Source of the DNA: Rhina ancylostomus
Lineage: Eukaryota
Assembly (NCBI GenBank): GCA_030265395.1
Contig: JARFYF010000074.1
Coordinates: 30,232,957 to 30,296,956, forward strand
Reading direction: 5' to 3'
Length of the DNA: 64,000 bases
The notes below the pieces were generated by a model that ran no database searches, was not told the origin of the DNA, and saw nothing but the letters and a program-made list of their open reading frames with translations. Shown in pieces: positions 7,293 to 50,052 of the stretch (its first letter is position 1; the number at the start of each line of letters is the position of its first letter). A program made the translations under genes and the position numbers.

Positions 7293-7725
7293 AACAAACT
7301 AGTACAAACGATCAGAGAACAAACAAATACGTTGTCTGAATTCCCTGAATCTGGACAAATAATGGCTCTATGCTACTGGGAATCTACTCAGGACACTCCA
7401 AGACCCCTGTGGAAGTGCCCCCTCTCACCTGTGGTCTCGACCTGGCAGCAATCGGAAAAGAGAAAGAGAGCCCATGTGTACCATCTTTTATAGGCCTGTA
7501 GCTTGGTGGAGCCCGCTCAGGTAATTTAAATAAGCCAATGAATCAGGGTCAAGAACAAAGGTGGGTTACAAGCCAGTCCTTAGGTGTGGTCTCTAATGGG
7601 TGGGACGGAGCTGGACCCTTGATTGACAGTGGTATAGCTTCTGACCTGATAGGCAATGCTATTATCCGACCATGGGGGTCAGTAGTGTTGTCACTACCAT
7701 CTGACCCCTGTCCTTTCATACTACA
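7079..7725 (-). mobile_element. Solo LTR (647 bp) with 5-bp target-site duplication CTTGG
   Basis: TG...CA termini with imperfect inverted ends (tgttatgaaa / tttcatactaca). CTTGG at 7074-7078 and 7726-7730. On the minus strand TATAAAAG (7492-7485) precedes AATAAA (7163-7158), the U3-R-U5 order. Confidence 0.85.
7268..7293. repeat. (CA)13 microsatellite inside the LTR
   Basis: Read directly from the sequence. Confidence 0.95.
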
Positions 7726-8109
7726 CTTGGCTACAAATCACCAGGAATACAGTAAAAAAAAGTGAATCATAGCTGGTGAAGCAGATAGGATTTATTTAAA
7801 CTACCATATTCTCTTAACTGGAGGACTGCAAGGCTATAAGACAGGATATCAAACAAATTCTTATTCTGAAGCAGCAGGATCCCCGGCAGAATGGCCACAC
7901 CTAAAGCAATAGTGGTGATGATAGATTAGACATGAACTTTTGAGGCAATGATAGCATTCTGTGCTACTTCAAATGAAAAAGGTGATTAAGTAAGTAATCA
8001 TTCAAATAAATGATTATAATTAGCTTTACTATTTCTTTGTACTTTTTACTGCCTGGGTTGTTGAAGAATATTAAAATTCTGCTTCAAGCCATGCCGTAAA
8101 AATGCATCA

Positions 8110-8446
8110 GAACATAGAAACAGACCCTTTGGCTCACAGAGTCTGTGCTATCGATTTAAACTAATCCAATTTTATTCTCCCCGCATTCCCATCAATTCCC
8201 TCATCCCACTCTCACCAGATTCAACAACCCACCCACATGCTAGGAGCAATTTACAGTGGCCAATTACCCTGCCAACCAATATATCTTTGGGGTGCGGGAG
8301 GAAACTAGCACATTGGGGGGCGGGGGTAGAGGAACCAAGGAACCCACACAGTCACAGGGGGATCGTGCAAACTCCACGCAGACAGCACTGGAGGTCAGGA
8401 TTGAACCCTGGTCACTGTGAGACAGCAACTCTACTAGTTGCCCCAT
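8110..8446 (-). mobile_element. V-SINE (HE1-like) with CR1-type tail
   Basis: Minus strand shows a tRNA-like head with B box GGTTCAATCC, V-domain gctgtctgcgtggagtttgcacg...tgtgtgggtt, and a tail ending gggtctgtttctatg. Confidence 0.85.
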
Positions 8447-8679
8447 TATGGTTCTTTTAAAGTTGCATACTTTATTGTTGCTGATTACACTAATATAAAC
8501 ATGTGCTGATCAAATCTGTAATATATTCAAACTCCTCTCTTGCTGTGCACATTGTCCATAAAACTTTAGCTACTCTTATCATATTCTTGCCATGCTTTTG
8601 CCTTTTGGAATATATATGCCAATATTTACAATGGAAACTTCCTTGAAAATGGATTGTGTAGTTTCAAGATTTTGTAGGC

Positions 8680-9011
8680 TACGTGAACAGAGAGGCTAGA
8701 TCTCTATTCTTACAAAATTCTTAGAGAGAAAAACAGGGAGGATACTCCTTTAGCTGAAGAGTGCAGAAATGGGGAGAAATTTCTTCACCCAGAGTGTCAT
8801 GAATTTTTGAAATTCTTTACCCTATGGGCTGTGGAGGCTCAGTCACTGTGTTCAAAACAGAGACTGATAGATTTGCAAATAGTAGGATCAAGGCAACTGG
8901 GCTCAGAGCAAGACAATGATGTTAAGTAGGAGATCAGCCACAATCTTATTGAATGGTGAACTAGTTTGAAGAGACAAATAACCTAGTCCTTTCCCTATTT
9001 CTTATGTTCTT
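8680..9011 (+). mobile_element. CR1 LINE 3' end, old subfamily
   Basis: RNFFTQSVMNF*NSLP motif and cctatttcttatgttctt tail. Confidence 0.75.
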
Positions 9012-9019
9012 ATATATTT

Positions 9020-9275
9020 CCAAGCATGTTTTGGTGCTCCCAAGCACCTGCTGCCGTTGGCCTTGCTGGTATCAGGCCAGTAACTGCAGCACACTTTGAA
9101 CATTGTTTACACTGTACTCACCTTGTGCCTTTGTGGTGGTGGATCAGGTGCCAATGTGATGGGCTCTGCCCTAGATTGTGTTGTTAGAGCTACATTCATG
9201 CAGGCTAGTGGAGAGTATTCCATCACACACTTGAACTGCTCCTTATAGATAGTGAAATAGCTTTGTGGTGTCAGG
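9020..9275 (-). mobile_element. CR1/L2-group LINE fragment (YKxQVRxxMEY type)
   Basis: The minus strand translates LTPQSYFTIYKEQFKCVMEYSPLACMNVALTT. Confidence 0.7.
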
Positions 9276-9278
9276 GCA

Positions 9279-9425
9279 TAATGCTAGAATCTTATTAAGC
9301 AAGATTGCTGAGCTGCAAGAAAAATTAAGCACATGGAATTATGATGTTGTGGCAATAACAGAGACCTGGATAATAAAAAAAGGGATAGGAATGGATTCTA
9401 AGTATTTCCTGGATACAATGTGTTC
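9279..9425 (+). mobile_element. CR1 ORF2 AP-endonuclease N-terminal fragment
   Basis: NARILLSKIAELQEKLSTWNYDVVAITETW, the APE NxRS...DxxAITETW motif. Confidence 0.85.
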
Positions 9426-10549
9426 AGGCTGTGGGAACATTCTAGGAGCAAGGATGCTGTCTGAGGCCATCTCACTGCTGGGACCCTATTTTGCCTCTGT
9501 GGATGTTTCATGGTGCAGAAGTTCAGTTCTATCATCTCACCAGCTTCCGCCTGGGTAAAACTGGGCAGGTGGGGTCCATGGATGCTGAGCCAGGACAAAC
9601 AAAATTCAACCCAATGTTGCAAATGGTGTGGCATTGGATGAGTAAAAGTACTTTAAATAAAACTCATGGTTTAATTTTGAATTATTTATCTTCTTACGTG
9701 GTATATGTAACATTGATTGTTATTCTCAGACTGCCACCTGTTTTAGGGATTGTGACTAATTTAGATTAATTTCCCAGTTGGTACAACAGTAAGTTCCAAA
9801 GAGGTAGTGTGTGATGGGACCCTGAATAATTCCACTGTTGTTTGAGCTCCTTGCATCTCCCATGTATAAAGCTGTATACATGGTAGTGTTTAAGAACCCC
9901 CCAGGGACACTTGCTTTGCAACCTTCTCTGAATAACAAGAATTTTTCCTAAAAGCATCGTTTTCCCCTGAATTTGCTTGAAAATAAACATCAATTAACCA
10001 TATGTTCTCAGACAGATTACTGTTATTTTGTTGGCACAATAACTTTGAGGCACTGTAATGTCTAATATGAATGAATGGCATTTGTGTTGTCTTGATAATG
10101 TGCATTTATGAAAAACATAGAAAAAGGAGGCATATCTAGTCAGTATGGCAGTATATAATCAGAGATACTATTACTCAGACTGTCTGTTAATATTTACACT
10201 CAAAAATTAATTAAAGGAATTGTAACCCATCTGTCTTGCATAATAACTATTTACTAAGTATTTATCAGTTCATACATATGTCATCTTGTTATTTCAGACT
10301 GATGTTTATGTGGGATTTAAATATGGTTTACGTTATAACCTTACACCTTGCATGCCACAATTCTCTGTTCATCTGGCTTTCTGCTCTGCTGCTGAACTCG
10401 CTATTGAGTTCAAAAATAGATCATTGAGGTGCTGAATGAAAGACTGGTGAACAAAGAGTGGGTTTACTGATCCTGTGGAAAAAGACAAGTGCTGGTAAGA
10501 GCTTGAGTTTAAAATTCTGCTTCAAGCAATGCCGTAAAATTGCATCAGA

Positions 10550-10837
10550 ACATAGAAACAGACCCTTTGGCTCACCAAGTCTGTGCTATCGATTTAAGCT
10601 AATCCAATTTTATTCTCCCCGCATTCCCATCAATCCCCCCATCAACCCACCCACATGCTAGGAGCAATTCACAGTGGCCAATTGCCCTGCCAACCAACAT
10701 GTCTTTGGGGTATGGAAGGAAACTAGCACATTGGGGGGGCGGGGGTAGAGGAACCAAGGGACCCACACAGTCATGGGGGAACGTGCAAACTCCACACAGA
10801 CAGCACTGGAGGTCAGGATTGAACCCTGGTCACTGTG
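10550..10837 (-). mobile_element. V-SINE (HE1-like), 5'-truncated duplicate of the 8.1-kb copy
   Basis: Near-identical to 8110-8419, including a private G-rich insert. Confidence 0.85.
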
Positions 10838-11699
10838 GTATTTAATTACGTTTATTTTTAAATTGCTTTCAATTATTTAAATCTATTTGAATAGTTCTTT
10901 GATGTCTCTGTTTGAGACATTTAAAAGGTGTTCAAAAGCCTTTGAGAAAAATAGTCAAAGGCCATCAACAGTCTACTGCACAGGGCTCCCTTGCCTTGTG
11001 GAGTCCACATCTCCTCGCAGATGTTTCTTGGGTGTGGAGAGTCTGCTCATTTGGCCCCACATAACTGGAGAAAGTAAATTAGTGTAGGCAGCAAGTTCAG
11101 CTGATAGACTGTGACCAGCACAATCTGGCCCATTAATTCACATTTATCGTTATGCTGCCTTTGAGATAAAGCAACACTTTCTATAATTATAGAATGCTCT
11201 TGGTTACCTTATGTAAAATAAGACAGAAGGACTAAACCGTTAACTGCAATCTTTTGGAATCTACCTGAAGAAAGGCACTTTCTAGCATTGCTTGGAAGCA
11301 ATGTCCATAGATGAAAAGCAACGTTTAATGTTGATTTTAAACCTTTCACATCTATATTTTATCAGGAAAATACCATGTATTTTGTGCTAAAAATGGATGT
11401 AGTGAATTCTGAAAATGAGGAAGTTATTGTCATTTATAGTCATTTATTCCCATGCAATTAATTTTATGGANNNNNNNNNNNNNNNNNNNNNNNNNNNNNN
11501 NNNNNNNACTTGGTTCAAAATGAGTCAATAAATTTTAGCATGGTAAGGCATTCAAATTATTGCTGGAATATTTGCATTTCTTATACTTTTGTACTGCGAA
11601 GTATGTTGGTAGTTGTTCTGAGCATATATTTATTACATATTACATCTTCTGATTTTCAATGAAAACATTATATTTCTATGAATTAAATGCAGATTTAGG

Positions 11700-12420
11700 A
11701 ATCTGTGGCATTAGGTTACTGGACCAGCAATCCAGTGGCCTAAACTAGTAATATGGAGATGCAGATTTAAATTCCATCTCAGCAGCTAGGGAATTTAATT
11801 GCAGTTAATTAAGTAATCAGTAAATAAGATTCATAATGGTGACCATGAAATTACTGGATTGTTGTAAAAACCATCTGGTTCACAACTATCCTTCAGGGAA
11901 GTAAATTAGCCATCGTTATGCAGTTTGAACTTTCTGTGATTCCAGTCCCGTACCATTGTGATTGACATCTGCCCCTGAAATGATTGAACTGAACATTTAG
12001 TTGTATCTCTAGGATTTGTGCAGCAGACAGACCATAGGGATCATCCTAGGCATCAGATTGAAGTATAACAAATGCACACATAAGCCAAAATAACTGTGTT
12101 CCCAATTCATTCAAACTGCACCCAAAGAACCTTCAAACAAACATTTGGAGACAGGTGCCTAAGTTGGGAGAATTGTTTCACAGACTAATCAATCAACAGC
12201 CTATCCTAGTCAGAGCCACAGAATCATGATTTTCAGCCCCCATCCCAGATTTCTCCATCATCAATTCTAAGTATGACCTGTCTCACTGGCTACCTGCCAG
12301 GGATGGTGAGGCAATGCTCCTGAGACTCAATATTGACTAAGACTCCATAAGCCTAATGGAAACACATTGAATGGGGCAAGGATTGTGCTTGCTGATTACC
12401 CCTACTCTCGAGCCATGCCC
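11700..12420 (+). mobile_element. LINE 5' region: SINE-like head followed by AP-endonuclease N-terminus
   Basis: Head at 11700-11990 (atggtgaccatgaaa...gtaaaaaccatctggttcac...cttcagggaag), then NIWRQVPKLGELFHRLINQQPILVRATES* from about 12140. Confidence 0.65.
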
Positions 12421-12859
12421 TCCTGAAGCTTGGTAATGTCTTCTTCATTGTTTCTGGGTTTCATTATCATTTACAAACTTTAAAATTATATTCTGTGGAC
12501 TGTCCAGGTTAGTAACATCAATATGGGAACAGGACNNNNNNNNNNNNNNNNNNNNNNNNNNNNNNNNNNNNNNNNNNNNNNNNNNNNNNNNNNNNNNNNN
12601 NNNNNNNNNNNNNNNNNNNNNNNNNNNNNNNNNNNNNNNNNNNNNNNNNNNNNNNNNNNNNNNNNNNNNNNNNNNNNNNNNNNNNNNNNNNNNNNNNNNN
12701 NNNNNNNNNNNNNNNNNNNNNNNNNNNNNNNNNNNNNNNNNNNNNNNNNNNNNNNNNNNNNNNNNNNNNNNNNNNNNNNNNNNNNNNNNNNNNNNNNNNN
12801 NNNNNNNNNNNNNNNNNNNNNNNNNNNNNNNNTCCCCATTTAGTGGTACTTGAACATAT

Positions 12860-12975
12860 CTTTTCAGCTGTCGTAGATTTTCTTGCGCTGTGTCTTTTAA
12901 TGAGATCACTTCTCATTCTTTCAAACTGTGAGTGTTGGCCCAATCTAATCAATCTCTCATGGGATAAGCTAATGA
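12860..12975 (-). mobile_element. CR1 ORF2 C-terminal fragment
   Basis: SLSHERLIRLGQHSQFERMRSDLIK resembles LSYEERLxRLGLYSLExRRMRGDLIE. Confidence 0.7.
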
Positions 12976-13219
12976 ATCTAAGTGCCACTCTTGCCAAGGC
13001 ATGTAGAGCCTTGCAGAGAGCAGGGCTTTAAATTTATAAACCTTAATCACCTCATACAATGGATAAAAGCTTTTGAATGCAGAGATTTGTGGATTGCTGT
13101 ATTCATTGTGGGAATAAAGGATCAATGATGTTGGCGGTTGTACAAATGAGGGGAGAGAGCATGATAACGAGCTGGTCCTCTCATCTGCCTCCAAATCTCT
13201 CAGGAGGCTTGCCCTCCAT

Positions 13220-14530
13220 TAGTCATAGAGTTATGCAGTGCAGAAACAGGTCCTTTTATCCCACATTGACCATCACGTATGCCGCTATACTAGCCCCATT
13301 TTCCAGCACCTGACCTGTAGCCTTTTATGCCTTGGTGATTCAAGTGCTGCTTAAATGTTGTGAGACCCTATGCATTAACCTTGCACTTGAGCAACATGTT
13401 CCAGATTCCATCCACTATCTAGTTGGAAAAAATTCTTCTTTAAGTCCTCTCTAAACCTACTTCTCCTTACTGTAAATCTATGTTCTGTGAATTTAGGGGG
13501 ATAAATTCTTACTATCTATGCCCCTCAATCAGGCCCCCATCAGTCTCCTGTGCTTCAGGGAAAACAAACCCAGCCTGTGCCTTCTATCCTCATATCTGAA
13601 ACATTCCATCCCAGGCAACATCCTGGTGAATCTCCACTGCACACTCTCCAGTGATCACATCCTTCCTATGGTGTGATGACCAGTGCTCCATCTGTGGCTG
13701 AACCAGTGTTTTAATTGGTTTATTACTGAAACATGCGCTGAGTTAGTCAAAAAATTGATTTGCATTGCCATCCATACAGATCATATAAAACAGAGGTACA
13801 TCAAGATAGTAATAACAGAAGGTAAAATAGTGTTACAGTCACAGAAAAAGTGCAGTATAGGTAGACAATAAGGTGCAAGGGCCATGACGAGGTAGATTGC
13901 AAGATCTAGAGTTCATTTTTATCACACGAGGTCTGTTCAAGAGATAAGACTCTTATCTATGACAGAATAGAAGCTGTCTTGAGCCTGGTGGTATATGTTT
14001 TCAAGCTTTTGTACCTTCTGCCCGATGGAATCTCTTGCTTTGCTCCAGCTAATAATGGCAGGTGTCCCACATGCCTTGTTAACTACTTTATCTACTTGTG
14101 CTGCCACATTCAGGGATGCTTGGACTTGCATACCATAGTCTCTATTTTCCTCAATACTCACTAAGGCCCTGCATTTTTCTTGTCTTATTAGTCCTCATAA
14201 AATGCATCACTTCATACTAACCAGGATTAAATTCCACGTGCTATTGATTTGCCCATTTTACCAATGTGTCAATAGCATACCGTAGGCTAAGATTAGCCCC
14301 TTAACAACAACAACACCAATTTTATGTCACGTGAGAGGTTACTACTCGTATCTCCTCCATCATCATAAAACAAACAGTAAAGGTTCCAGTACTGATACCT
14401 GTAATTCACCACTGGTTACAGGCTTCCAATCATAAAAACAACTTTCCACCATCGTCCTCTGCCTCCTTTTACCAAGGCACTTTTGGATCCAATTTGTCAG
14501 CTTGCCCTAGATCCCATGGGCTCCAACCTT
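13220..14530 (-). mobile_element. CR1 LINE 3' part, interrupted by a Rex1/Babar fragment
   Basis: Tail at 13222 and 3' ORF2 to 13712. It resumes at 14030 with QVQASLNVAAQVDKVVNKACG and RT remnants. Confidence 0.85.
13715..14028 (-). mobile_element. Rex1/Babar-type LINE 3' end nested in CR1
   Basis: Minus strand PSGRRYKSLKTYTTRLK, then a 3' UTR ending aataaacc. Confidence 0.75.
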
Positions 14531-14824
14531 GTCACCCCTCAATAAAATTCAATATCTTTTATTAAATATATGCCTTTTGAGGATCCTGATTTAATGGGCA
14601 TTGCTCAGAGTCCTTGGGGTAGAACTCTGCCCCGTGTCACTAGCACTAAACGCACATATTAAGTGGGACTGCACATTATACAGGACTTGTATTCTGTTTT
14701 ATTTTAGTAATTCAGTTCTTTCATTGTTAATGCTGCTCTATTTTGTATGTGGCATCCACAACTGAGCACTCACTCCTTTTGCCACTTCTAGGAGTTTAGT
14801 TACAGCAGAAAGTGGTAATGTACT

Positions 14825-16160
14825 AGAGTCGTACAGCTTGGAAACAGGCCATTCAGCCCACCTCGTCCACCCCAACAGTGGGCACTCTTCCGTAATAATC
14901 CCGTCGCCAGCACTTGGTCCATATCTTTACCAAGCATTTCAACTGTCCATCTAGACACTTCTTAAAATAGTGTCAGCATCACAGCTTCAACCATTCTCTC
15001 AGGTAGTGCATTGCAGGTGCTTACCACTCTCTGGGTGAATAAGGACCCCCTCGTGTCCCCTCAGAGTCTCTTACCCCTCGTGTCCTCTCAGAGTCTCTTA
15101 CCCCTTACCCTAAATCTATGTCCTCTAGTTTTATTTAACACTGATATGGGGAAAAGTTTCCTGTAGTGCACCTATCTATACCCCTCATATACGTCAATGA
15201 TATCCCCCCTTTAACCTCCTCTGCTCCAGAGATTAAAGACCTAACTTCTCCAGTCTTTCCTCATAACTGAGCTACTCCATCCCAAGAAACATCCTGGTGA
15301 ATCTCTTGAATCCTTCCCAGCACTATCCCATGCTTTCTGTAGGATCGTGACCAGAACTGTATGCATTACTCCAGCTGGAGAGTGATCAAAGTTTTATAAA
15401 GTTGAACGTAACCTCCCTCTTTCTATGTTCAATGCCCCAACTAAAGAAGGCCTGTATCTTATTTGTCTTTCTAACCATGTTGTCTACCTGTGTTGCTACC
15501 TTCAAGGATCTATGGACTGGTACTCCCTCTGTTCTTCAATACTCCCAAAGAGTCTACCATCCATGGTATATGTCCTAGTCTCATTAGTGCTCCCAAAATG
15601 CATCACCTCACACTTGTCTGGATTAAATTCCATCTACCATTTTTCAGCTCATTTATCTAAAACATTGATAACTCTCTGCAGCCTAAGACTGTCTTCCATA
15701 CAATCAATGACTCTGCCAATCTTCAAGTCATCCACAAGCTTGCTGATCTTGCCTCCCACATCCACATCCTTTACGTATATTGCAAATAAGGGTCCCAGCA
15801 CCAACCTTCGTGGGACATTAGTAGTCACGGGCATCCAATGTCAAAAACAACCCTCCACCATCACACACTGTCCCCTATTGCCAAGTCAATTTTGGATACA
15901 ATTTGTCAACTTACTCTGAATCCCATGGGACCTCAACCTTTTGAGCCAGTCTCCCATATGTGACCTTGTCAAAGTCCACGTAACTCACATCTACTACCCC
16001 ACCCTCATCAATACACTTTGCCTCTTCAAAGAATTCAGTCAAATTGGTGAGACAGGATCTGCCCTTGACAAAGCCATATTAGTGGTCTCTTAGTCCCTGT
16101 TTTTCCAAGTGATCATTAATCCTCTCCCTCAGAATTTTTTCCAGCATCTATTCTATGACT
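14825..16160 (-). mobile_element. CR1 LINE, RT domain to 3' tail
   Basis: VTTNVPRRLVLGPLFAIYVKDVDVGGKISKLVDDLKIG (decayed GVPQGSVLGPLLF...FADD). Tail at 14825. Confidence 0.9.
15047..15105. repeat. 27-bp tandem duplication within CR1
   Basis: cccctcgtgtccYctcagagtctctta occurs twice with one mismatch. Confidence 0.9.
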
Positions 16161-18085: not shown

Positions 18086-19390
18086 TTACCATAAAACAAC
18101 ACAGGCCCTTCGGCCCACCATGTTGTGCAGATCTTTAAACCATGCCTAAGACTATCTAACCCCTTCCTCCCACATATCCCCCTATTTTAAATTCCTCCAT
18201 ATGCTTATCNNNNNNNNNNNNNNNNNNNNNNNNNNNNNNNNNNNNNNNNNNNNNNNNNNNNNNNNNNNNNNNNNNNNNNNNNNNNNNNNNNNNNNNNNNN
18301 NNNNNNNNNTATAGCCTCATAATTTGCCTTTCCCCAATTAAATAACTTCACATCCTCTTGGCTCCTATCCTGGTCCATGACAATGCTAAAGGTTAGGGAG
18401 CGGTGGTCGCTGTCCCCCAAATGCTCACCCATTGATAGATCGGTCACCTGACCCGGTTCATTACCTAATACTAGATCTAATATGGCATTCCCTCTAGTCG
18501 GCCTGTTAACATACTGTGACAGAAATCTGTCCTGGACACTCTAAACAAACTCTGCCCCTTCTAGACTTTTGGTACTAAGCAGGTGCCAATCAATATTTGG
18601 GAAGTTGAAGTCTCCCATGATAACAACCTTGTTATTCTTGCACCTTTCCAAAATCTGCCTCCCAATCTGCTCCTCAGTCTCCCTGCTGCTTCCAGGGGGC
18701 CTATGGAATACTCCCAGTAGACTAGCTGCTCTTTATTGTTCCTAACTTCCACCGATACTGACTCTAGAGAGGATCCTTCTACATTATCCACCCTTTCTGC
18801 AGCTGTAATAATATCCCTGACCAGTAATGCCATCCCTCCTCCTCTTCTTCCCCCCCCCCACCCCCTATCCCTTTCAAAACACTGAAATCCAGGATTATTC
18901 AACATCCATTCCTGCCCTGGTGACAGCCAAGTCTCTGCAAGAGCCACAAGATCATAGTCCCATGTACTTATCCAAGCTCTCAGTTCATCACCCTCATGCC
19001 TGATACTTCTTGCATTTAAGTAAATGTACTTTATCCCATCCACCTTTCTACTTTTATACCCTGTACTCTGCTTCCCCTTCCTCAAAGCCTCTCTATGTGT
19101 TAGATCTGACTTTTCCACATCCACTTCTTCCTCTGACCTACACCCCCTGCGTCCCATCCCCCCCATAAACTAGTTTAAACCCTCCTGAACCACCCTAGCA
19201 AACCTGCCTGCAAGGATATTGGCCCCCCCTTGGGTTCAGGTGTAACCTGTCCTTTCTGTACAGGTCCCACCTTCCCCAGAAGAGATCCCAATGGTCCAAA
19301 AATCAAAAACATTCCCTCCTGCACCAACCCTCAGCCATGCATACACTTGTCATCTCCTCCTATTCTTACCTTCACTATCATGTGGCACTG
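18086..19390 (-). mobile_element. Long, relatively young CR1 LINE: ORF1 esterase C-terminus, ORF2 endonuclease, gap, 3' tail
   Basis: 19390-19169 gives FLDHWDLFWGRWDLYRKDRLHLN..ANILAGRFARVVQEGLN*. ORF 18561-19166 gives YLNARSIRHEGDELRAWISTWDYDLVALAETWL. ORF 18205-18447 gives HLGDSDHRSLTF. The tail is at 18086-18209 beyond a 100-N gap. Confidence 0.92.
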
Positions 19391-36840: not shown

Positions 36841-39182
36841 TTTCTACATTAAATGATGCTTTGGTAGAATTGTGCAATAGTGAAATAAGTTGATGGAATA
36901 AATGCACATTATTGAAACAGGCTGGACTGATGCAATCTCATTTATGCAATTGCACAGGTGAAGAAATAAGGAGTGATTCAATGCATAGTCACATTGCGTT
37001 TAAAAGGGGAGGATCAGATTATTACTTGCAATATTTTTTTACTTAAAAGTTAGAGCTGTTCCTTATTAAAATCAAAGAATTCCCATTTCCCAAGATTAAC
37101 ATCAGCTTTCACTGTACTGCCACATTTTGTCAAATATAATGATCTGGCATGAAAGCATAGTTTTTGTATTTAAGGTACTGTCAGGATTTCAGATTTTTAC
37201 TATTTTTCTAAATACTCTCAACTTGCAGTGGAATTTTCTTGGGTGGATTATTCTAAATATATTAAGCAAAGGATATTTGTAATTGGATAGACCTGTGCAC
37301 TTAAAATCCCTGTGTTAACAGTAATTAAAGTGCAACATAACCAGATGCAGGGGGGAAATTAGTTTACAAGGCATTAAAGTAATGCAAGGAATGAGATGTA
37401 TTAAGATTAATGGTAGAAATAATTTTATTTCTAAGTAGGATAACAGAAATTTAAAACTGCTACTGACCTAATCACTTCTGTGAATAATTGCTGATTACAG
37501 CACCAATCTCACCTTGTCTCAAAACCCAGGACCTGTAATTGAGCTGAGCAGTTGGGCATAATCATTGCTGCAAACTTCATTACTGCAATATCATGAATGT
37601 GTAACTTGACTTGAACAACGGACAAACCTATTGACTGTTCTTGTGTGGTATCCATTTACGTTATATCAGAGTAAAATTGAGGACATTTGAGAGAAATTAA
37701 CACACTACAGGCAGTTGATTCACCTGGGGGTTCGAAGAGCATTGCACTCCAGTCAGTGCTACAAATTGCACTTTTAAGCATTGTTTTGCAAGTTTGGTGC
37801 ACAATTTAAAATATTTGTCAGAACTTTGATACCTGCAGCACAATATCCTGCTGTGCTGGAAAGATATCACTTTCCCCTGAAATTCTGACAAATTCTTCAA
37901 AGCCAAATATCTTCCTTCAAAGATATTTGGCTTCCTGTTTCTGGTTGCCTGCTGTCATGTATATATTCTACTTCTTTTCCAGGTGACTTTGGTGTGAATT
38001 CGCCACACCCATTTTGGGATACATGCAGTTAAATTTTACTGAGTCCTTTTGGAGGAAAATCCAGATCATAGTTAGAGATTTGGTATTAGTATTCCAGGTC
38101 CCAAGTAGTAGCAGATGTGGATTTCAGTTCTGAGTTCCTTGGTGACACTTTATATCTGCCTTCAGTCCTAATATATGCCCACCTCCCATTTCAGCATGAT
38201 GACTGGGATTTCCAATGCTGAAGTAAAAGCATTGACGTTTTCCTCAGTGTACCACCTTGTATTTCTCCCGAGATATCCTATATATCAGAGGTTGCCTTGT
38301 GAAGCTGACGGCTAGAATAGCTTACAGTGGCAGGACACTGAAAGTTATTATTGTAATTATCTGTAACCCACTCAATCAATTAGCAGTATTATGAAATTTA
38401 TCTTGAGGAATAGATGTGCAAGCAAAAGCTATGATGTAGAACTTGNNNNNNNNNNNGTGCCATCAATCCATTGTCATTAATCAGTGCATCGGTGCATGGA
38501 TGAGAAAATCCATTGCCTGCTCCGTCAGTATTGGACACCTTAGGAGATAACGCATGGGTGAATATTAAATTTAAGAAAAATGTAAGTTGTTATTTAAATG
38601 TTTTTAATATTTTCAGGTCAACTCAGGACATCCTACATGCTTGAAGTGTAGTCACTTTTGCTTTTGGAGGCAAGTGCAGCAACCATTTTTTCCATAGTAA
38701 AATGCATGCCCGCAATACACTGGCTGGCACATCACTTAGAACTCCTTATTCTTTCGAAGGTTTTTCCAGTTAACTTTCACAAATCCTTACAGACAAACGG
38801 GAAGTTAATAGGTCTTGTTTGAAAGAGAACACCTTGCAGTGCAACAGTTCCTTAATGGATAACCAGTTGCAATTCTTCTCCATAATGGGTCTGGAGGAAT
38901 GAAGAGACATTGTGGGGGGTAGAGTGCTTACTGCTATAGGACAAGAATTGTGGCTTAGGTGTGGATTAATGAGTAAGGGAAGTGACTGTGTTGGGCAGTG
39001 GATGTGGTTGTAAATTGTTCTCTGAGGGATGTCAGAACATGGGTCTGAGGGTGTGCTGGAGGTTGAGGCCTTTATTATAGGTCTCAACATATTAGGGATA
39101 GACCTTTGCAGAACTGGAGGTCAGTGGATCAGGAATGAGGTCAGTTGGAGAGAGTTGGACACTCTGCTGGAGTGTCCCAAAC

Positions 39183-39322
39183 TGCTGGAATAGCTCAGTG
39201 GGCCAGGCAACATTTGTGGAGGCAGAGGGGTAGACCTGAGTCTTGATGCAGGGTCTCAACCTGAAATGTCGACAATCCCTCTGCCTCCACAGATGCTGCT
39301 GCACCGTTGAGTTCCTTCAGCA
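39183..39322 (+). mobile_element. Short PLE-derived fold-back element with central hammerhead-like motif
   Basis: Arms 39183-39229 and 39277-39322 are imperfect inverted repeats. The centre reads GTC-TTGATGCA-GGGT-ctca-ACCT-GAAA-TGTC-GAC. Confidence 0.8.
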
Positions 39323-39959
39323 ATCACTGTAGTATTGAGAATATCAAGTCATTCAACAGGCGTACACAGAGGCTTTCCATAAGTGGTGGAAGGACTACAG
39401 CATCTCAAAATGGCCACGCATTTGTCCCATCAGTGGAAGAGAACCAACAAAACTGGAATGGAAACAAGTCATCTTTGAACTTTGTTAAAGAAAGTTGCAC
39501 TTTCTGTAGTCATTTTCAGGTGAAGATGTTGCTGGTGTGGCAGGAGTTATAGACTTGGTAACTTCAGGCTTCTGAACATGGGATCATAAATTATTGGTTG
39601 ATGCTGTTTATCATGTTGTTAGCTGATGCTGAGTGAAAGAAAGACCTCCCCTTGAGTAAGATTGATTTTTAATAATGCAAAAGGCCTCAGGCCCTCAAAC
39701 AAAATGTTATTTAAATGGTGGCTCAGGTCATTTTTTTTAATGTGCCTTTACAGCTGCCAAATTCTTGACCTATATATTTATAAACATCTGGATGTTAGAT
39801 TGCATGGCACCATCCTTTTATTTACTAAGTGATTTGATCTCACTAAAAGGTTGNNNNNNNNNNNNNNNNNNNNNNNNNNNNNNNNNNNNNNNNNNNNNNN
39901 NNNNNNNNNNNNNNNNNNNNNNNNNNNNNNNNNNNNNNNNNNNNNNNNNNNNNAAAAGG

Positions 39960-41740
39960 TTGGTCATTGAGGAAAATTGTTAACTCTGCAAGTTCCACAA
40001 AGTTTGTGATTTTCAGACAGAATCAGCATGGTTTAATGAAAGAGTAATTGTGTTTGACACATTTTCTGGAGTTCTGTGAAGATGTAACAAATAGAGTGGG
40101 TAAAAGGGAACCCAGTAGCTATGGTATATTTGGATATCCTGAGGCATTTGATAAGATGCCATTTAAAAGTTCACTGCATTAGGTAGAGTACAATTTGGGA
40201 CAAGATAATTGACGTGGATATGGGGAGTGACTAACAGATCATGGGCAGGATATATGGGTCATTTTGGATTGGCAATAAATAGTGGGGTGCCACAGGTCTC
40301 AATGTTTATAATCTGTAATACTGACTTGGATGAAGGGACTGAGTGCACTGTAGCCAACTTTGCTCTTGCTATAAAGAGTTAGCAAGATGTCAGTTGGACA
40401 CTGCCTGCAAGGGAATATAGATTGGTTTAGTGTGGAGGCAAGAAGATGGAGCATATTATTACATAAATGGATTAAGGTGGTAAGATTATAAAATATTGTG
40501 ATACCAAAGGGATGTGCAGGTTCTAGTACATGAAACTGTAATGCTGAGGCTTTATAAAGTGTTGGTCAGACCACATTTGGAGTATCGTGAGCAGTTTTGG
40601 GCCCCATATCTAAGGAAGGATGTGTTGGCGTTGGAGAGGTTCCAGAGGAGGTTTCTGAGAATGATCCTGGGAATGAAAAGGTTAACATATGAGGAGTGTT
40701 TGGCTCTGGGCCTGTACTCTCTGGAGTTTAGAAGGATGAAGTGGGGGAGGGNNNNNNNNNNNNNNNNNNNNNNNNNNNNNNNNNNNNNNNNNNNNNNNNN
40801 NNNNNNNNNNNNNNNNNNNNNNNNNNNNNNNNNNNNNNNNNNNNNNNNNNNNNNNNNNNNNNNNNNNNNNNNNNNNNNNNNNNNNNNNNNNNNNAAGGAC
40901 ATCCCTTTAGAACAGATGAGGAGGGATTTCTGTAGCCAGAGGGTGGTGAATCTGTGGAATTCATTGCCACAGATGACTGTGGAGGGTATATTTGAAGTGG
41001 AAGTTAATAGGTTATTGATTAGTAAGGGTGTCAAATGTTACGGGGAGAAGGCAGGGGAATGGGGTTGAGAGGGAAAAATAAATCGGCCGTGATCGGATGG
41101 CAGAGCAGAGTCAATGGGCCAAATGGCCTAATTCTGCTCCGATGCCTTAAGGAAACAAAAAGTTAGTAAGTCTCTGCAGCAAGTAATTAGGAAAGCTATT
41201 GGAATGTTGGCTTTGATTGCAAGAGGCATGTAGTTTTGATGCAACTTTACAGACACTGGTAATGCCTGGAATACTGCATACAGTTTTGGTTCCATATTTA
41301 AGGCTGGATATTACTTGCATTGGAGCTAGCACAGAAAAAGTTTGTTAGGTTGATTCTTGGACTGAAGCGGTTGATGCAAGAAGGAAGGTTCAGCAAGTTG
41401 GCACCATACTTATTGGAGTATAGAGAATGAGAGTTGATCTTATTGAAACGCAAAACATTCGGAAAAGGATTCAGAGGTTGGATACTGAGAGGATGATCCT
41501 CCTAGTTGGTTTCAGAAAAACTGGTTACCCACTTGAGATAGATGAGGATTTGTTTTTCTCTTGGGGGTTGTGAACCTTTGAGATTCTCAACCCCAGAGAG
41601 CTGTGAAAATTACAAGGGGTCAAAGGGTATTGGAGAGAAAGTGGGAAAATGAGTCCAAGATTGGGTCAGACAAGATTTTATTGAATGATGGAGTAGGCTC
41701 AAGGGGATGATTGGCCTACTTCTAGGCCTGTTTCTTATTT
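39960..41740 (+). mobile_element. Old CR1 LINE (RT to tail) hosting a younger CR1
   Basis: QHGLMKE*LCLTHFLEFCEDVT, YLD..AFDKMP and SGVPQ motifs. It resumes at 41152 and ends cctgtttcttatt. Confidence 0.85.
40537..41151 (+). mobile_element. Younger 5'-truncated CR1 nested in CR1, apparent TSD GAAAC
   Basis: VMLRLYKVLVRPHLEYREQFWAPYLRKDVLALERFQRRF...SQRVVNLWNSLP. GAAAC at 40532-40536 and 41152-41156. Confidence 0.88.
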
Positions 41741-42094: not shown

Positions 42095-42860
42095 CGTGTG
42101 CGCAAAAAAAAAAACACTTGGACAGACTCAATCATCAGGCAGCATCTGTGGAGGCAAAAGGTGCAAGTTGACACTTTGAGTTGAGACCCTGCGTCAGTAC
42201 TGAGAGGGAAGAGGAAGGACTGTCAATGTATATTAGTATGTGGTTGTGGGGGTGGAGGGAGAGAGCAGCTCATAGGTGGAACCAGATGGAGAGGGGATGA
42301 TGGGCAGATGGAGCCAGGTGGAGGAGGGGGAATGGTAGAGGTGGACACAGGGACAAGAATACTAGGTGAAGAGCTGAGTGTGTCTGGGAAGAGATCACCG
42401 TTGGGGGGGAGGGGGTGGTGAGATGGGTTACCTGAAATTGCAAAATTCAATGTTTCAACCATTGGGTTGGAAGTTACCCAAGCAGAATATGAGGTGCTGT
42501 GCTTCCAACTTGTGTTTGTCCTCTAGCAATAGAGAAAGCTGAGGCCAGACAGGTCAGTGTCAGAGTGGGAAGGACAGTTAAAGTGACATGCAACCAGAAG
42601 CTCAATATGGCAGCTGAAGACAGAGTGCAGGTGTTCTGCAAAACAGTCGCTTAGTCTACAACTTGGCTTCACCAATGTAGAGGAGGCCCCATCATGAGCA
42701 CTGAAAGCAGGAGACCAGGTGGGTAGAGGTGCAGGTCAACCTCTGCCTCACCTGAATGGGCTCTTTCGGTCCCTGGATGGTGGGCCTGCAAGAGATAGAC
42801 GGGTTCATCTTGCACCTTCTATGTTTGCAGGAGGAATGTGCCAGGGTTACCCAGTGTCCA
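42095..42860 (-). mobile_element. Penelope-like element: GIY-YIG endonuclease, 3' UTR and degenerate hammerhead (42167-42200)
   Basis: CKHRRCK..PTIQGPKEPIQVRQRLTCTSTHLVSCFQCS*WGLLYIGEAK..LSDCFAEHLHSV, a pyrimidine-rich UTR, and CTGACGCAGGGTCTCAACTCAAAG. Confidence 0.88.
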
Positions 42861-43809: not shown

Positions 43810-44772
43810 TTTGTCCACTGGTTTTGTTACTGGCAAGGCCTGTTCCTAATTGCCCTTGAAATTTGTGCTGAGCAACCACCTTGAATTGTTGCAGCTTGGG
43901 TGTTGAAGGAATTCCTATATTGCTGTTGGGTAGGTAGTCCCAGGATTTGACCTGGTAAAGGATCAAAGATATTTTCAAGTGTGTTAATTAGAAGGGATTT
44001 TGTATAGACATAGTAGTGTAGCGGTTAGCGTAATGCTTTACAGTGGCAGCGAACTGGGTTCAATTCCAGCCGCTGTCTGTAAGGAGTTTGTAGTTCTCCC
44101 TGTGTCTGTGTGGGTTTCCTCCCACATTCCAAAGACATGCGGGTTAGGAAGCTGTGGGCATGCTATGTTGGTGCCGGAAGTGTGGTGACACTTGCGGGCT
44201 GCCCCCAAAATACTACGCAAAGAAGATGCATTTCACTATGTTTTGATGTACATGTGATCAATAAAGATATCTTATCACAGTGCACTGCTGCCCTTAAGTT
44301 TCCATGTGGTAGATGTTATAGATTGAAAGATGGTGTCAAAGCAGTCTTGGTGAGTTGTTATAGTGCGTCTCACAATTGCTATACACTTCAACTATGATGT
44401 GCTGGTGGTGAAAGAGTGAGCTTTTAAGGGGCTACAATAGATACTAATTTATTAGGTTATACTTGATGTTGTTGATCATCTTGAACATTATTGAAATGGC
44501 TCTTTAGGCAAGTAAAGGATATCCCATCACACTCCTGACTTGTGCATCCCAGCCAGGAAGTAACTTTGTAGGTCACTTGTTGTAGAAAACCATTCTATTG
44601 CTTTGCTCTTTTGAAGCCGTCATATTTCGTGCAGCAGGTCAATGGTGAGCTCCAGGATGCTGATACTATGGAGTTCAGCAACGGAAATGCTGTTCATTGT
44701 TAAGGGCATCGGATTAGACTTTCTCTTGTTGGCGACGTTTATTGTTAGGCACTTAGGTGGCAAGCAATGACT
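43810..44772 (-). mobile_element. CR1/L2-group LINE 3' part, split by a SINE
   Basis: Reverse complement of catcacactcctgacttgtgc gives AQVRSVM. Tail ...caagggcaattaggaacagg. Same family as 9020-9275 and 60770-61395. Confidence 0.7.
44007..44276 (+). mobile_element. Young V-SINE with non-CR1 tail
   Basis: A box tagtgtagcggttagcg, B box ggttcaattcc (44057-44067), V-domain, and tail tgcatttcactatgttttgatgtacatgtgatcaataaagatatc. Several CpGs are retained. Confidence 0.9.
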
Positions 44773-45855
44773 ATTACATAATTTCATTTTGTTGATTTTT
44801 CTATTTGACTGGAATGCTAAGGTTAAAAAATTTTATTTGAAGCAATGTTTTAAATTGCTTAGAAAATAACCCCCTATAACTGGAGTACATGCACGCTTGC
44901 ACCAAATGTTCTCCAAGCAGCTTTAGGATAATTGTTTAAGCATCTACAGATGTTCTAAGTATAGATACAATGAATTGGTTTCACTCTAAGTGAATTGATC
45001 ATATTCTGCTTTCAAAGTTATTGATGATTTTCTGAACTATAATTGATATTTATCCAGTCAATTGGATACTTGCCACCAATCTTTTACATACTCCAGATAA
45101 TAAAGACTGCTGCAAATATACAACACCATAGACTTTTTTAATAGTATGAATAAACCAGATATTTTTAACTTGGTAATAAAAGACCAGATTGTTAGTTCTT
45201 CATATTCAGATTTCTGTTGAGAATAGCTTTTGATTTCTACAAGCCATGTATAAACTCTGTAGATTGTTGCATTTTAGCAAAATGTATTTCCCATTCACAG
45301 CCTGCTAACTGTTGGCATATTATTAAATGAGTGCTGTGGCACTCACACAGCTTATTGCTGCACTCCACATGAAATTATGAAACAGCTGAGAGAACGCTGC
45401 ACTGAAGATTGTGGGCTCTGTAAAAGTCCCAGCTGTAATCTTGAGGCCATAAGTCCCTCTGGTCAAACTGTTTCTGTACTGCATTCACATGTGCATAAAA
45501 ATCTGAGTCTTAGTTTATGTTCTACCCCTAGATAAATGGGGTAAATCTAACCAATCCAATTAATAACCGAACAACTTCCTCAGTTCTTTAGTAAACTGAT
45601 CAAAACAGTGTTATCAAGCAACACTCATTTATGCCATGTTCATCAATTCATGGTTGGAGTTCTGCCAAACCACTTGGCTCTGAATGTTATCAATGCCTTG
45701 ACTAAATCACGGCCAGAAGAGCTAAATGTCAGAAGAAAAACGAGAAGAGATGCCTTTGATACTCAACACAAGTGTTTGGAGTCACTCCAGATGAGAAGGA
45801 AATTAGTTGTTGTTGCTGGAGATCAATGACATCAGTTCTGAAACCTGCACTGCTA

Positions 45856-46372
45856 AAGTACATCTTTGCTCCATCCGCTGCAAAAGCCAGGATCTCCCGG
45901 TGGTTAGCCACTTCAATTCTACATCCTACTCCCAAACTGACATGTCTATCCATGGCCACCTCCACTGCCATGTTGAGGCCAGATGCAAGTTGGAGGAACA
46001 ACACCTGATATTCCACCTTGGTAGTCTCCAACCTGACGGCCATCTATTCCCCACCCCTTTGTTCCATGATCCACTGCCCTTTCCTACCAGATTCTTCCTC
46101 CTCTAGCCATTTGCCTCTTCTACCTATCACCTCTCAGCTTCTTAAATCCCTCCCCCTCCCACCTACCTTTCCCCCCCCCCCCCCATCACCTGGACTTGCT
46201 TATCTGCCAGCCTGTGCTCCTCCCCCCTCACCTGACTACCTTATTCTGGCTTCTGTCCTCTTCCTTTCCGGTCCTGATGAAGGGTCTTGACCTGAAATGT
46301 CGACCTGTTTATTTCCTTCCATAGATGCTGCCAGACCTGCTGAGTTCCTCCAGCACTTTTTTGTGTGTGTTG
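45856..46372 (+). mobile_element. Penelope-like element 3' end: GIY-YIG C-terminus, UTR, hammerhead, tail
   Basis: HLCSIRCKSQDLPVVSHFNSTSYSQTDMSIHGHLHCHVEARCKLEEQHLIFHLGSLQPDG, the PLE endonuclease end (xxHF...RxxxE...LxPxG). Confidence 0.9.
46270..46305 (+). ncRNA. Minimal type I hammerhead ribozyme motif (PLE-associated)
   Basis: Stem I GGTC(46270-73)/GACC(46302-05), core CTGATGA(46274-80) plus an extra A, stem II GGGTC-tt-GACCT, GAAA(46294-97), then T-GTC with predicted cleavage after C46301. Confidence 0.8.
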
Positions 46373-46749
46373 TCTCACATCTATTCACTCCTTGATAGAT
46401 TCATCTGTCAGTGCCCTTGGCTATGCTTTGTGCTTCCTAACTTTCTGTTTTCACCAAGTATTGGTGGTTCTTATGGGACCCACTGACTCACCAACCCATT
46501 GTGCTCTCTTCAGACTGCCTTTTTCCCCGGTATTGGTTAAGTGCCTGCCTTGACCACCAGAGAACTCTCCTGCTGCTAGATACTTAGATGTCCCTTTCAC
46601 AACATTTGCAAACTGGTCAGTATTCTTCTCCTACTGCAATCCTCCCCAACCCCATTCCTCACTCCTCCCCATTCTGCCATCTATTGTCAGACTGATCTCT
46701 CCTGCTTTACTGTGATGCAGCAAGTGTGTGGTGCACTTCATCGGGTGGG

Positions 46750-47302
46750 GTGGGACATCATGTAACAGCTGTACAGCACCATTAGTGAGACTGCACCTGA
46801 AATATTGGGTGCAGTTTGGTCACTATGCTGTACAAAGGATGTTATTAAGATAGAGAGGGTGCAGAAAAGATTCACAAGGACGTTGATGGGACTGGAGGGC
46901 TTGAGTTATGAGGAGAGACTGGATAGGCTGGGACTGTTTTCCCTGGAGCAAAAGAGGATGAGGGGTGACCTTAAAGAGGTGTATAAAATCATGAGGGTCA
47001 TGGATAAGGTGGATGGCACAGTTCTAGAGTAGGGGAGTCTAAAACTAGAGGACATAGGTTGAAAGGCGAGAGGAGAAAGATTTTCCACACAAGGTGGTGG
47101 GTATATAGAATGAGCTGTCAGAGGAAGTGGTAGAGGCGGGTCCAATTACATCATTTAAAAGACATTTGGTTAGGTTCATGTATGGGAAAGGTTTCGAGGG
47201 ATATGGGTCAAATGCAGGCAAATGGGACTAACTGAGGAAGGAACCTCAGTCGGCGTGGACAAGTTGGGCCATAGAGCCTGTTTCTGTGCCGTCAAACTCT
47301 GA
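46750..47302 (+). mobile_element. CR1 (HER1-like) LINE 3' end
   Basis: KDVIKIERVQKRFTRTLMGLEGLSYEERLDRLGLFSLEQKRMRGDLKEVYKIMR and tail gcctgtttctgtgcc. Confidence 0.93.
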
Positions 47303-49872
47303 CCCAGAATCATTGGTCCTGACTGTCCTGCAGCAACCTGTCAGTTGAGCAGCTTCTGGGGCCCTTACCTCACCACCCCCCCCCCCCCCCAGCTGATTTG
47401 CCTGGATAGCTATGTATTTAAATAATTTTCCCCAGCAAACCCCCAATCTTCAGGTAATTTTTTTTCAGTGAAATTTGATCTGTGTTTAATTAACTTTCCC
47501 AATGAAACCACTGTTTTAAATTCATTTTATTGGCTGAACTCAGGTGTTTATTTAATTAAATGTGTAAAGGCCTTTTCAATTTATTAATCTTGTATGTATT
47601 TATTTTTGTCAAATTTGTCCCTGATCTCTTTAATTCATTTTGCTAACTTGGTAACATTTCTCCCGATTAATTGTGAACTGTTTTAAATCCATGGTTCGCT
47701 GAGCTTCATTGATTAAGTTTTCTCTTGCATTTTATATTTGGAAATGACTTGCATTTTTGGGTTATTGTGCATTCAATCAAATACCTTTTGGAGTGGCTGT
47801 CCTTCCCTCTTTCCTAAGGTCTGACACTTTCTCATCACTTATTGTCTATTTTTCCTTCAATTGGCTCTCCCGAGTCTTCTTGATATCTTCCTGATTTCCT
47901 GGTCTCCCTTTCCCATCTTAACCAGTGGAATTTGCTTTCTCTTTGCTGCTGGAATTAAGGAATTTTTGGGACCTGATGATTTTTTTTTAGAAGTCCATTT
48001 AATTTTATNNNNNNNNNNNNNNNNNNNNNNNNNNNNNNNNNNNNNNNNNNNNNNNNNNNNNNNNNNNNNNNNNNNNNNNNNNNNNNNNNNNNNNNNNNNN
48101 NNNNNNNNTTTTATCTTTTGTCTCCCTTTGTATTGTGTTTTAATCACGATGGAAAGAAATTATATCAGATGAATGAATAATGTAGGACCTGGAAAGATTC
48201 TTAGATAGAAGGGAAATGTCAAATGGCAGTAGGTAGTTGTCCAAAACAAAGTGATCGATATATAATTAATTTATAATTAAAATTAATTAACTTTTAGCCA
48301 CATAAAGTGAATAATCATCTGCCGCTGACTTTCTAAAATTGGTCCCTTTGGAACTTGCTAGAGTGTTTTAGTTTTTGTTGTACATTTCCAATGGGGTTGA
48401 TCACAAAGGATCTACTAGCTCTGTTTCCTTATTTGGTTTGCAGAGTTCACTACGCGAGGATGATGACTGTTATTCTGAAAATCATTTAGATGGGACTCCA
48501 TCTAGTAAAAGCAGAATTACAGCTCATGACAACATGCTTAATCTTTGAGTTCTAGAATTACTTGTTATTTGAATTTGTCCAAATCTCTCTGTTTAATAAT
48601 ATGTTATTACCACATTTTAAGACATTTTGGCTTAGTTGGGCTTCATTGCTGCCCATTGTCTGGGCATTCATTGGTGTGCATGCATGCATATCTTTAATAC
48701 ATTTTACACCAAATGCCATGTTCAGATAGAGAATAGCTCAAATGTTGCTTGTACATGCCAGAAGAATGCATAATAGGCAGATCATCATTTCAGTCCTCAT
48801 CAGCGCTGTGTTGAGGTCAGAACTGCAGCTAACATGGTGTTTAATGGCAGGAGGAATCTACTCCTACCACCACCTGCATTAATCAAAAGGGCCTGATTTA
48901 GATTTGTTGGTGATTGATTGATTGGAAGGATAAGCAGTTGTGGAAGGATGTTGCTTTTGGAAGAATGAAGTAATATCACAGCTCAAGTTAGACTGAACCT
49001 TAGCTTAAATCAATTGGTGATGATGACCCCTAGGTATTTTCAGGTTGGTGCAGGACATGCATTGCTTAGGAGAGATAATGGAGGCTCCAATTTTCAGGAG
49101 AGTAGAATTCAACTGAATCAGCAGAAAACACATGCACATGGATTCTCAAGGATTGAGAACTTCTGAAAGGTGCAGCAGCCGTCAACTGCACTTGCATCAC
49201 CTGTGGCCCACTGTATTAATATCCGGCAGCATTCAAATACTAGAAAGCACTTCCCTTCCTCAAGCTTCAGTGGTCTGCGATCATTTGCAAAAGATCTTGA
49301 CAACCTTTGGCTGATACCTGGGATGTAGTCATGACTCATTCTGCAATAGAACAATGTGCCTTCTGTACTCAAGTCATCACATCAAACTCAAGAAATGCAA
49401 ATTACGTTTAGATCATTATGGGAATTGAAATAAGGACAGGATCACACATGGGACTGATGGAGAGAGAGGTGATCTACAAATTTCAATATCTTTTCAAAGA
49501 ATGACAATCATACTGGTAAAGTTCATTGACATAGAGGTTGTTTGGCAATGCATTTAAAAACTAATCTCCTCTTGATCACATAAACTGTAATTTTTTCATC
49601 TTCCCTTTAAGTACCACAGGTTTGCTTCCTTCTAGTGATAAGTGTGTAGATTTCATGTGGAAAGTCCAGTGCAGCACAGCATGTGGAGGAGCAGGAATAG
49701 AATGTTATTAACAACCACTTCGGGATTGCCATGTTTAACATTGTCATCAATTTCATTCTGTGTTGGAATGCATGGGCAGCCTTATTATTTTAATTACAGG
49801 AAATCCCAAACCAATAACGCATAGTAAATCTAAGAGTGGTGCGTCATGCTAATTCTGTGGAATAGAGTGGAT

Positions 49873-50052
49873 CAACAAACAGTCTGCTGGAGAAACTCTG
49901 GGTCAAGCAGCATTTGTCAGAGGAAAGAAATTGTTGATGCTTTGTGTCGAGACCCTGCATCAGGACTGAGGTCTGCAGATGCTGGTCGACCCACTGAGTT
50001 CCTCCAGCAGATTGTTTGTTGTTCCAGATTCCAGCATCTGCAGTGTCTTGTC
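49873..50052. mobile_element. Short PLE-derived fold-back element with minus-strand hammerhead-like motif (49933-49966)
   Basis: caacaaacagtctgctggag... is inverted against ...ctccagcagattgtttgttg. The centre on the minus strand reads GTC-CTGATGCA-GGGTCTCGACAC-AAAG-CATC-AAC. Confidence 0.8.

What the first reader, a model, noticed from the sequence alone, without database searches (positions are those of the whole stretch)
46270..46305. Near-intact minimal hammerhead ribozyme at the 3' end of a Penelope-like element
Seen: all core nucleotides (CUGAUGA, GAAA, GUC), a 4-bp stem I, a 4-5-bp stem II, an extra A after A9 and a loopless stem III (AT|GT), about 230 nt after a GIY-YIG C-terminus. Established: PLE terminal repeats carry minimal type I hammerheads whose palindromic stem III is proposed to let them cleave as dimers. 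Inference: AT|GT is CpG decay of AC|GT and could still pair through G-U wobbles, so a plus-strand read-through transcript might be cleaved after C46301.
Basis: partly seen in the sequence, partly recalled or inferred. Interest (0 to 1): 0.7.

Follow-up and report, generated by a model that had tools for sequence, protein, structure and literature searches.

The report
Decayed jumping-gene hammerhead ribozyme copy
This is a real self-cutting RNA motif at the tail of a broken copy of a known kind of jumping gene, one of very many such copies in this genome, and it is likely inactive here, so it is ordinary.

Summary
The motif is there as described: all 13 core letters, two 4-bp stems, an extra A and a loopless helix III, with 0 chance hits in 9.6 Mb of simulated sequence. 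It lies in the 3' end repeat of a 5'-truncated, internally deleted Penelope-like element, Neptune-type by its relatives. The family has about 360,000 fragments (131 in 0.70 Mb), and 67 loci keep the undecayed 34-nt motif. CpG decay at helix III is confirmed, but two more CpG changes hit this copy, one turning the conserved G10.1-C11.1 pair into G·U. A private change also favours a misfold: predicted stem pairing is 0.02-0.05, against 0.50-0.98 in undecayed copies. Across 1,890 copies the core is kept no better than the adjacent non-core letters (70.0% vs 68.4%), and catalytic G12 is lost to CpG decay in 34%. No intact same-strand partner lies in the window. Verdict: a new member of a known kind (Cervera and de la Pena 2014), likely dead here. 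This scan has already noted the same family on other DNA of this genome.

The parts
45861..46372 (+). 5'-truncated, internally deleted 3' end of a Neptune-type Penelope-like element, ending without the optional tail
   Evidence: 81-85% identity to RT-endonuclease loci L114 and L185 over 45861-46041, 71-76% over the rest; repeat depth in two runs rises only over about 45839-46377
45864..46040 (+). C-terminal remnant of the GIY-YIG endonuclease (59 codons), lacking the GIY-YIG motif and the ORF's stop
   Evidence: 71% identity to P0001, E 5e-18; alignment; P0001 has Pfam GIY-YIG at 272-346, E 4.6e-4, below the curated cut-off
46040..46041 (+). Junction of a deletion of about 133 nt that removes the ORF end and the start of the 3' untranslated part
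   Evidence: L114 2575 jumps to 2708
46270..46273 (+). Stem I, 5' strand; G46270 replaces the family's A and allows a competing pairing with 46289-46292
46274..46281 (+). Core C3-A9 plus the extra A before stem II
   Evidence: sequence; matches the published consensus CUGANGAH
46282..46293 (+). Stem II, 4 bp with a 4-nt loop; CpG-derived T at 46288 (loop) and at 46293 (position 11.1, making G10.1·U11.1)
   Evidence: comparison with the undecayed motif
46294..46301 (+). G12-A15.1, loopless helix III with CpG-derived T at 46298, U16.1 and C17; predicted scissile bond after 46301
   Evidence: numbering as in PMC4209133
46302..46305 (+). Stem I, 3' strand, with one inserted C not seen in the family majority
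46306..46372 (+). 3' flank shared by all lineages of the family; the copy stops before the roughly 35-nt tail
   Evidence: flank-only profile finds all lineages; tail present in 42 of 74 readable same-lineage copies

Best explanation
This is an inherited minimal hammerhead in the 3' end repeat of a truncated, likely Neptune-type Penelope-like retrotransposon copy, and it is likely inactive and decaying neutrally at this locus. Shown: the motif, its link to RT-endonuclease ORFs in longer copies, three CpG transitions, and no excess conservation of the core among inserted copies. Inferred: in the once-active parent elements two tandem motifs swapped strands so that their palindromic helix III halves formed a shared 4-bp helix, probably with help from the element's protein, and cut after C17 to release or circularise the element RNA. 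Inferred: after insertion, methylated CpGs decayed; this copy kept its 13 core letters by chance, as about one copy in ten does, while losing fold stability and a partner.
For: Element identity. Abundance: 131 flank-profile hits in 700,019 non-N bases of 80 evenly spaced 10-kb stretches, about 360,000 genome-wide; 8 hits in the window. Chance intactness: 13 of 116 readable copies keep all 13 core letters; 8 of the 100 rows shown keep core and all pairs (hand count); 67 loci are undecayed over 34 nt. Neutral decay: 70.0% vs 68.4%, p=0.31; G12 lost as CA in 647 of 1,890 against 502 TG, the same 1.29 ratio as at the loop CpG, 588 to 456; helix III decays equally to the pairing TG and the non-pairing CA (32 vs 31 of 100). 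Fold: stem probabilities 0.02-0.05 in three contexts against 0.50-0.98 for three undecayed copies; double-hammerhead energy -5.9 vs -11.5 kcal/mol. Literature: single minimal hammerheads showed no cleavage and dimers low cleavage (PMC4209133); the Anolis element's ribozyme needed protein and no RNA-seq ends were found at its cut site (PMC11167929).
Against: All 13 core letters are intact, and every stem position can still pair if wobbles count; only 1 strict hit was found in the 0.70-Mb sample, so copies this complete are a minority (about 2,800 genome-wide, 95% interval 70-15,000). A downstream 10-letter flank control was intact in only 580 of 1,890 copies, which at face value makes the core look better kept than the flank; I discount it because those letters vary between sub-lineages and at CpG-derived sites and any indel in the 6-nt spacer counts as a loss. 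Nearest-neighbour energies ignore tertiary contacts and protein. No activity or expression data exist for this locus. The cross-lineage covariation is weak: 3 of 8 pairs change on both sides, 19-29 of 500 shuffles reach the observed scores, on 12 hand-picked copies.
Confidence: 0.86

Rival explanations
1. The copy keeps low residual activity: a plus-strand read-through RNA would be cut after C46301 when it pairs in trans with another copy's RNA or is refolded by the element's protein.
For: Core intact and wobble pairs possible; many potential partners exist; protein assistance is reported for a related element (PMC11167929).
Against: Predicted misfold and a 4.3 kcal/mol weaker helix III; G·U at 10.1-11.1; no intact same-strand partner in the window; all 103 scored ORF matches in the genome were partial or broken against P0001 or covered only part of an element, and no full two-repeat element was seen in 15 extended loci.
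Confidence: 0.1
2. The host has kept this ribozyme for its own use, as with the mammalian intronic hammerheads.
For: The 13 core letters are intact and the stem I changes happen to keep four pairs.
Against: About one copy in ten is this intact by chance; three CpG transitions in 34 nt equal ordinary decay; no tertiary-contact elements or stable helix III; the flanks are not covered by contigs of the second organism (a blank that proves nothing).
Confidence: 0.03
3. The hammerhead look is a chance pattern in repeat DNA.
For: Rfam gives no hit.
Against: 0 chance hits in 9.6 Mb; Rfam also misses an undecayed copy; the motif holds the same place in several lineages whose ORFs are only about 67% identical; it fits the published consensus.
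Confidence: 0.01

Closest known systems
Minimal hammerheads (min-HHR) of metazoan Penelope-like elements (Cervera and de la Pena 2014, PMC4209133; seen: parts 1-2 of 4 of the main text, part 2 of 3 and a term search of supplement file 2; file 1 not searchable)
   Same: Type I topology, U-rich 5' flank, CUGANGA plus one extra base, G at 10.1, loopless palindromic helix III (CG in the family, as in the fugu, lamprey and Xenopus rows), short stem I, mostly single dispersed copies of truncated elements.
   Different: Stem II is 4 bp, shorter than most listed rows; no cartilaginous fish appeared in the text read or under the terms shark, skate, Callorhinchus, Leucoraja in supplement file 2; this copy has G·U at 10.1-11.1 and a non-palindromic helix III through CpG decay.
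Neptune clade of endonuclease-bearing Penelope-like elements (Craig et al. 2021, PMC8557442; seen: passages and supplement part 54)
   Same: RT followed by a CX2-5CxxC linker and C-terminal GIY-YIG in relatives, with a long linker like Neptune1_Nv; 5' truncation, inverted partner copies and an optional 30-40-nt tail.
   Different: The window copy holds only 512 nt, with no RT, linker, inverted partner or tail. Clade is assigned by motif comparison, not by a tree.
Poseidon element PAc of Anolis and its protein-assisted hammerhead (Frangieh et al. 2024, PMC11167929; seen: parts 1-2 of 4)
   Same: Hammerhead in the pseudo-LTR, tail marking two alternative 3' ends.
   Different: Another clade; there the ORF starts inside the ribozyme, which I could not test here because no full-length element was recovered.
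Non-LTR retrozymes (Li et al. 2026, bioRxiv 10.64898/2026.07.22.740005; seen: part 1 of 5 and passages; supplements closed)
   Same: Type I hammerheads derived from Penelope-like end repeats; reported in one chondrichthyan genome.
   Different: Retrozymes are tandem arrays; this copy is single and carries an endonuclease remnant.

Membership tests
Metazoan PLE minimal hammerhead | Core CUGANGA, GAAA and UH intact | tested here: met
Metazoan PLE minimal hammerhead | One extra base between A9 and position 10.1 | tested here: met
   A46281; consensus CUGANGAH
Metazoan PLE minimal hammerhead | G10.1-C11.1 pair | tested here: inconclusive
   G-C in the family majority and in 67 undecayed loci; G·U in this copy through CpG decay
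Metazoan PLE minimal hammerhead | Palindromic positions 15.2-16.2 | tested here: inconclusive
   CG in the family; TG in this copy, pairing only by tandem wobbles
Metazoan PLE minimal hammerhead | Located in the end repeat of a Penelope-like element | tested here: met
   360-383 nt behind RT-endonuclease ORFs in L114, L185, L191, L194
Metazoan PLE minimal hammerhead | Self-cleavage as a dimer | not testable with these tools
   needs bench work; fold prediction is unfavourable for this copy
Neptune-clade Penelope-like element | RT with C-terminal GIY-YIG endonuclease in one ORF | tested here: met
   in relatives P0001, L112, L114; the window copy keeps only the endonuclease end
Neptune-clade Penelope-like element | CX2-5CxxC zinc-finger linker of Neptune length | tested here: met
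   P0001 and L182 compared by eye with the Neptune and Nematis rows of the published alignment
Neptune-clade Penelope-like element | Placement in the Neptune group on an RT tree | not tested
Neptune-clade Penelope-like element | Inverted truncated partners and optional 30-40-nt tail | tested here: met
   family level: L114; tail in 42 of 74 copies; neither present in this copy
Non-LTR retrozyme | Tandem units, each with a complete hammerhead | tested here: not met
   single copy; nearest same-strand relatives 7.0 kb upstream and 3.7 kb downstream lack an intact core
Domesticated hammerhead | Core conserved above neighbouring sequence at an orthologous locus | tested here: inconclusive
   no orthologue recovered; no excess conservation among paralogues

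The most novel reading that the evidence does not exclude
With hundreds to thousands of still-complete copies scattered through the genome, these minimal hammerheads cut host transcripts by pairing in trans or with help from the element's protein, and this locus is one such cut site. A separate and likelier novelty (about 0.3) lies in sister lineages that carry a C after G8 while keeping both stems: if they cleave, they are a natural core variant outside the published consensus.
Probability: 0.05. Interest if true: 0.55.

Novelty: new member of a known kind. Interest (0 to 1): 0.13.

Why it matters
At this locus it matters little: it is one decayed copy of a described motif. The family is a useful data set, though. 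It gives whole-genome counts showing that inserted minimal hammerheads decay neutrally while parent lineages kept the motif, and 67 undecayed loci plus natural variants would allow direct tests of the open question of what these ribozymes do for Penelope-like elements. If host RNAs were really cut by such copies, a genome holding thousands of them would face a transcript-level cost not yet described.

Tried and rejected
Rfam scans: no hammerhead on the window stretch or on an undecayed copy, so uninformative. RNA evidence: no RNA holder listed; two contig sets were laid and show only repeat depth, no ends or strand. Host gene: 205 stop-to-stop frames of at least 62 aa gave four Pfam hits at E<=0.001; two are LINE endonuclease pieces, one translates as LINE-like decay by my recalled knowledge of such sequences, and one is unexplained and below the cut-off. 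No host gene or strand was established; short exons would be missed. Selection against ribozyme activity: the G12 loss excess (647 vs 502, p=2e-5) looked like it, but the loop CpG shows the same ratio (588 vs 456), so rejected. Downstream flank control: discounted as confounded, see the Against line. A count of all ten non-CpG core letters at once was not obtained; seven-letter blocks were compared instead. Full-length element: none seen in 15 extended ORF loci. Lunse et al. 2017 is not held; I saw only its reference line and a review's summary (PMC6765202, passages), so it may already cover shark or ray copies and core variants. Searches for print on this in cartilaginous fish: hammerhead+Penelope+shark 4 papers, none on it; Penelope+elasmobranch+ribozyme 0; Penelope+batoid+genome+transposable 1, listing only. 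Dropped rows: 15 of 131 sample hits were unreadable upstream and left out of the 116.

Full report
Observation. A strict descriptor finds only this hit in the window and none in 9.6 Mb of simulated sequence. Rfam gives no hammerhead here, but also none on an undecayed copy, so its models do not cover this form.

The element. Upstream, 45864-46040 translates to a fragment 71% identical to a protein named from a ray, P0001, which holds RT motifs, a CX2-5CxxC linker and a GIY-YIG domain. A cartilaginous-fish host is therefore inferred. Searching the genome with P0001 gave 103 scored matches among 67,630 candidates. In longer copies the ribozyme lies 360-383 nt behind the endonuclease end; here it is 229 nt because about 133 nt are deleted at 46041. 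L114 shows ORF, ribozyme, tail and an inverted truncated partner, the layout described by Craig et al. (PMC8557442, passages). The long linker matches the Neptune rows of their alignment rather than Nematis or Poseidon; this is a comparison by eye, not a tree. The window copy runs 45861-46372 and stops before the tail, as do 32 of 74 readable same-lineage copies.

Abundance. A profile built only from the 3' flank found 131 hits in 700,019 non-N bases of 80 evenly spaced stretches, about 360,000 genome-wide, and 8 in the window. Of 116 readable copies, 13 keep all 13 core letters. Sixty-seven loci match an undecayed 34-nt motif exactly, against 0 for the reversed control. In the window's lineage 1,890 copies match both short flanks exactly with a 35-nt spacer; the window copy is not among them because of its inserted base. 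By hand count 8 of the 100 rows shown (all from contig C1) keep the core and all pairs.

Decay. The window copy differs from the undecayed 34-mer at three places, 46288, 46293 and 46298, all C>T at CpG. The seven letters C3-A9 are intact in 1,323 of 1,890 copies and the next seven non-core letters in 1,293, p=0.31. G12, the general base (PMC11300833, passages), is lost as CA in 647 copies against 502 TG; the loop CpG gives 588 against 456, the same ratio, so this is a general strand bias and not selection on catalysis. One control points the other way: ten downstream flank letters were intact in only 580 of 1,890. I discount it because those letters vary between sub-lineages and at CpG-derived sites and indels count as losses, but it was not resolved by a further count.

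Selection in parents. Several lineages, defined by 3' flank alone, carry the motif with different stems, and they sit behind ORFs only about 67% identical to one another. On 12 hand-picked copies 3 of 8 pairs change on both sides, with 19-29 of 500 shuffles reaching the scores: weak support alone, but in line with the motif having been kept in active elements.

Fold. In 66-, 143- and 251-nt contexts the window copy forms stems I and II with probability 0.02-0.05, because G46270 lets the stem I strand pair with 46289-46292; three undecayed copies give 0.50-0.98. A modelled double hammerhead scores -5.9 kcal/mol against -11.5, and the 4-bp helix III loses 4.3 kcal/mol. These energies ignore tertiary contacts and protein, and in this model both dimers are less stable than two separate monomer folds. 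Same-strand relatives at 26514, 39240 and 49977 lack an intact core.

Mechanism. Cervera and de la Pena report no cleavage for a single minimal hammerhead and low cleavage for dimers, and propose processing of precursor RNA (PMC4209133). The Anolis element's ribozyme cleaved only with protein, was not needed for insertion in vitro, and left no RNA-seq ends (PMC11167929). I infer that the parent elements used strand-swapped dimers cutting after C17, and that this copy is likely inactive (0.86). No RNA holder was listed and no host gene was found, so read-through is untested.

Comparison and novelty. It works like, and belongs to, the metazoan PLE minimal hammerheads, fitting the published consensus at family level. 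I found no paper describing them in cartilaginous fish, although a 2026 preprint reports retrozymes in one chondrichthyan and Lunse et al. 2017 could not be read; unseen supplements may already list this family. Six earlier notes of this scan describe the same family on other pieces of this genome with the same verdict; I read them after forming my view and do not count them as evidence. Perreault et al. (PMC3088659, passages and one part) did not show the C-after-G8 variant in the text I saw; their figure was not visible.

Verdict. Observation confirmed; interpretation partly supported; new member of a known kind; interest 0.13.

Noticed in passing
window 39238 (+), about 42200 (-), about 49966 (-); L195 7447, L191 5863, L188 3223: Sister lineages carry C after G8 (CUGANG, C, A, then stem II) in 8 of 27 in-register copies, tied to their own 3' flanks and, in L195, to an RT-endonuclease ORF. 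This falls outside the published CUGANGAH consensus and may be an undescribed core variant or a dead lineage.
   Followed up: partly
genome-wide, window's lineage: Plus-strand G>A exceeds C>T by 1.29 at two CpGs of the motif but not at the helix III CpG (31 vs 32 of 100, hand count). Unexplained: sequence context or deamination of the copied strand.
   Followed up: partly
L083 6117, L101 8634, L048, L158, L170: Several copies, mostly of one sub-lineage, have A at core position 4, suggesting a parent with a U4A change still spread.
   Followed up: no
window 39178-39336 and 49866-50048: Two fold-back pairs of the same family's ends, on opposite strands and adjoining.
   Followed up: partly
window 42135-42585 (-): A second truncated copy with endonuclease end and a decayed hammerhead, from another lineage (68-70% identity).
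   Followed up: partly
window 44007-44270 (+): A tRNA-like head (Rfam 17.8 bits, below threshold; ARAGORN none) followed by repeat-like sequence; probably a tRNA-derived SINE (label recalled).
   Followed up: no
window 18544-19169 (-), 40502-41068 (+), 46766-47270 (+): LINE remnants: endonuclease domain hits at 18544-19169; the other two look like CR1/L2 3' ends (label recalled).
   Followed up: no
L164, L167, L154: In undecayed copies the predicted monomer fold pairs core letters G5-G8 with the helix III and cleavage-site letters, which would lock a single motif off until a partner arrives.
   Followed up: no
G000:C17 9656874-9657106 (L197); G000:C1 110510397-110510934 (L198): Same-strand tandem pairs 175 and 480 nt apart, the layout that would allow a dimer; all four motifs have lost G12.
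   Followed up: partly
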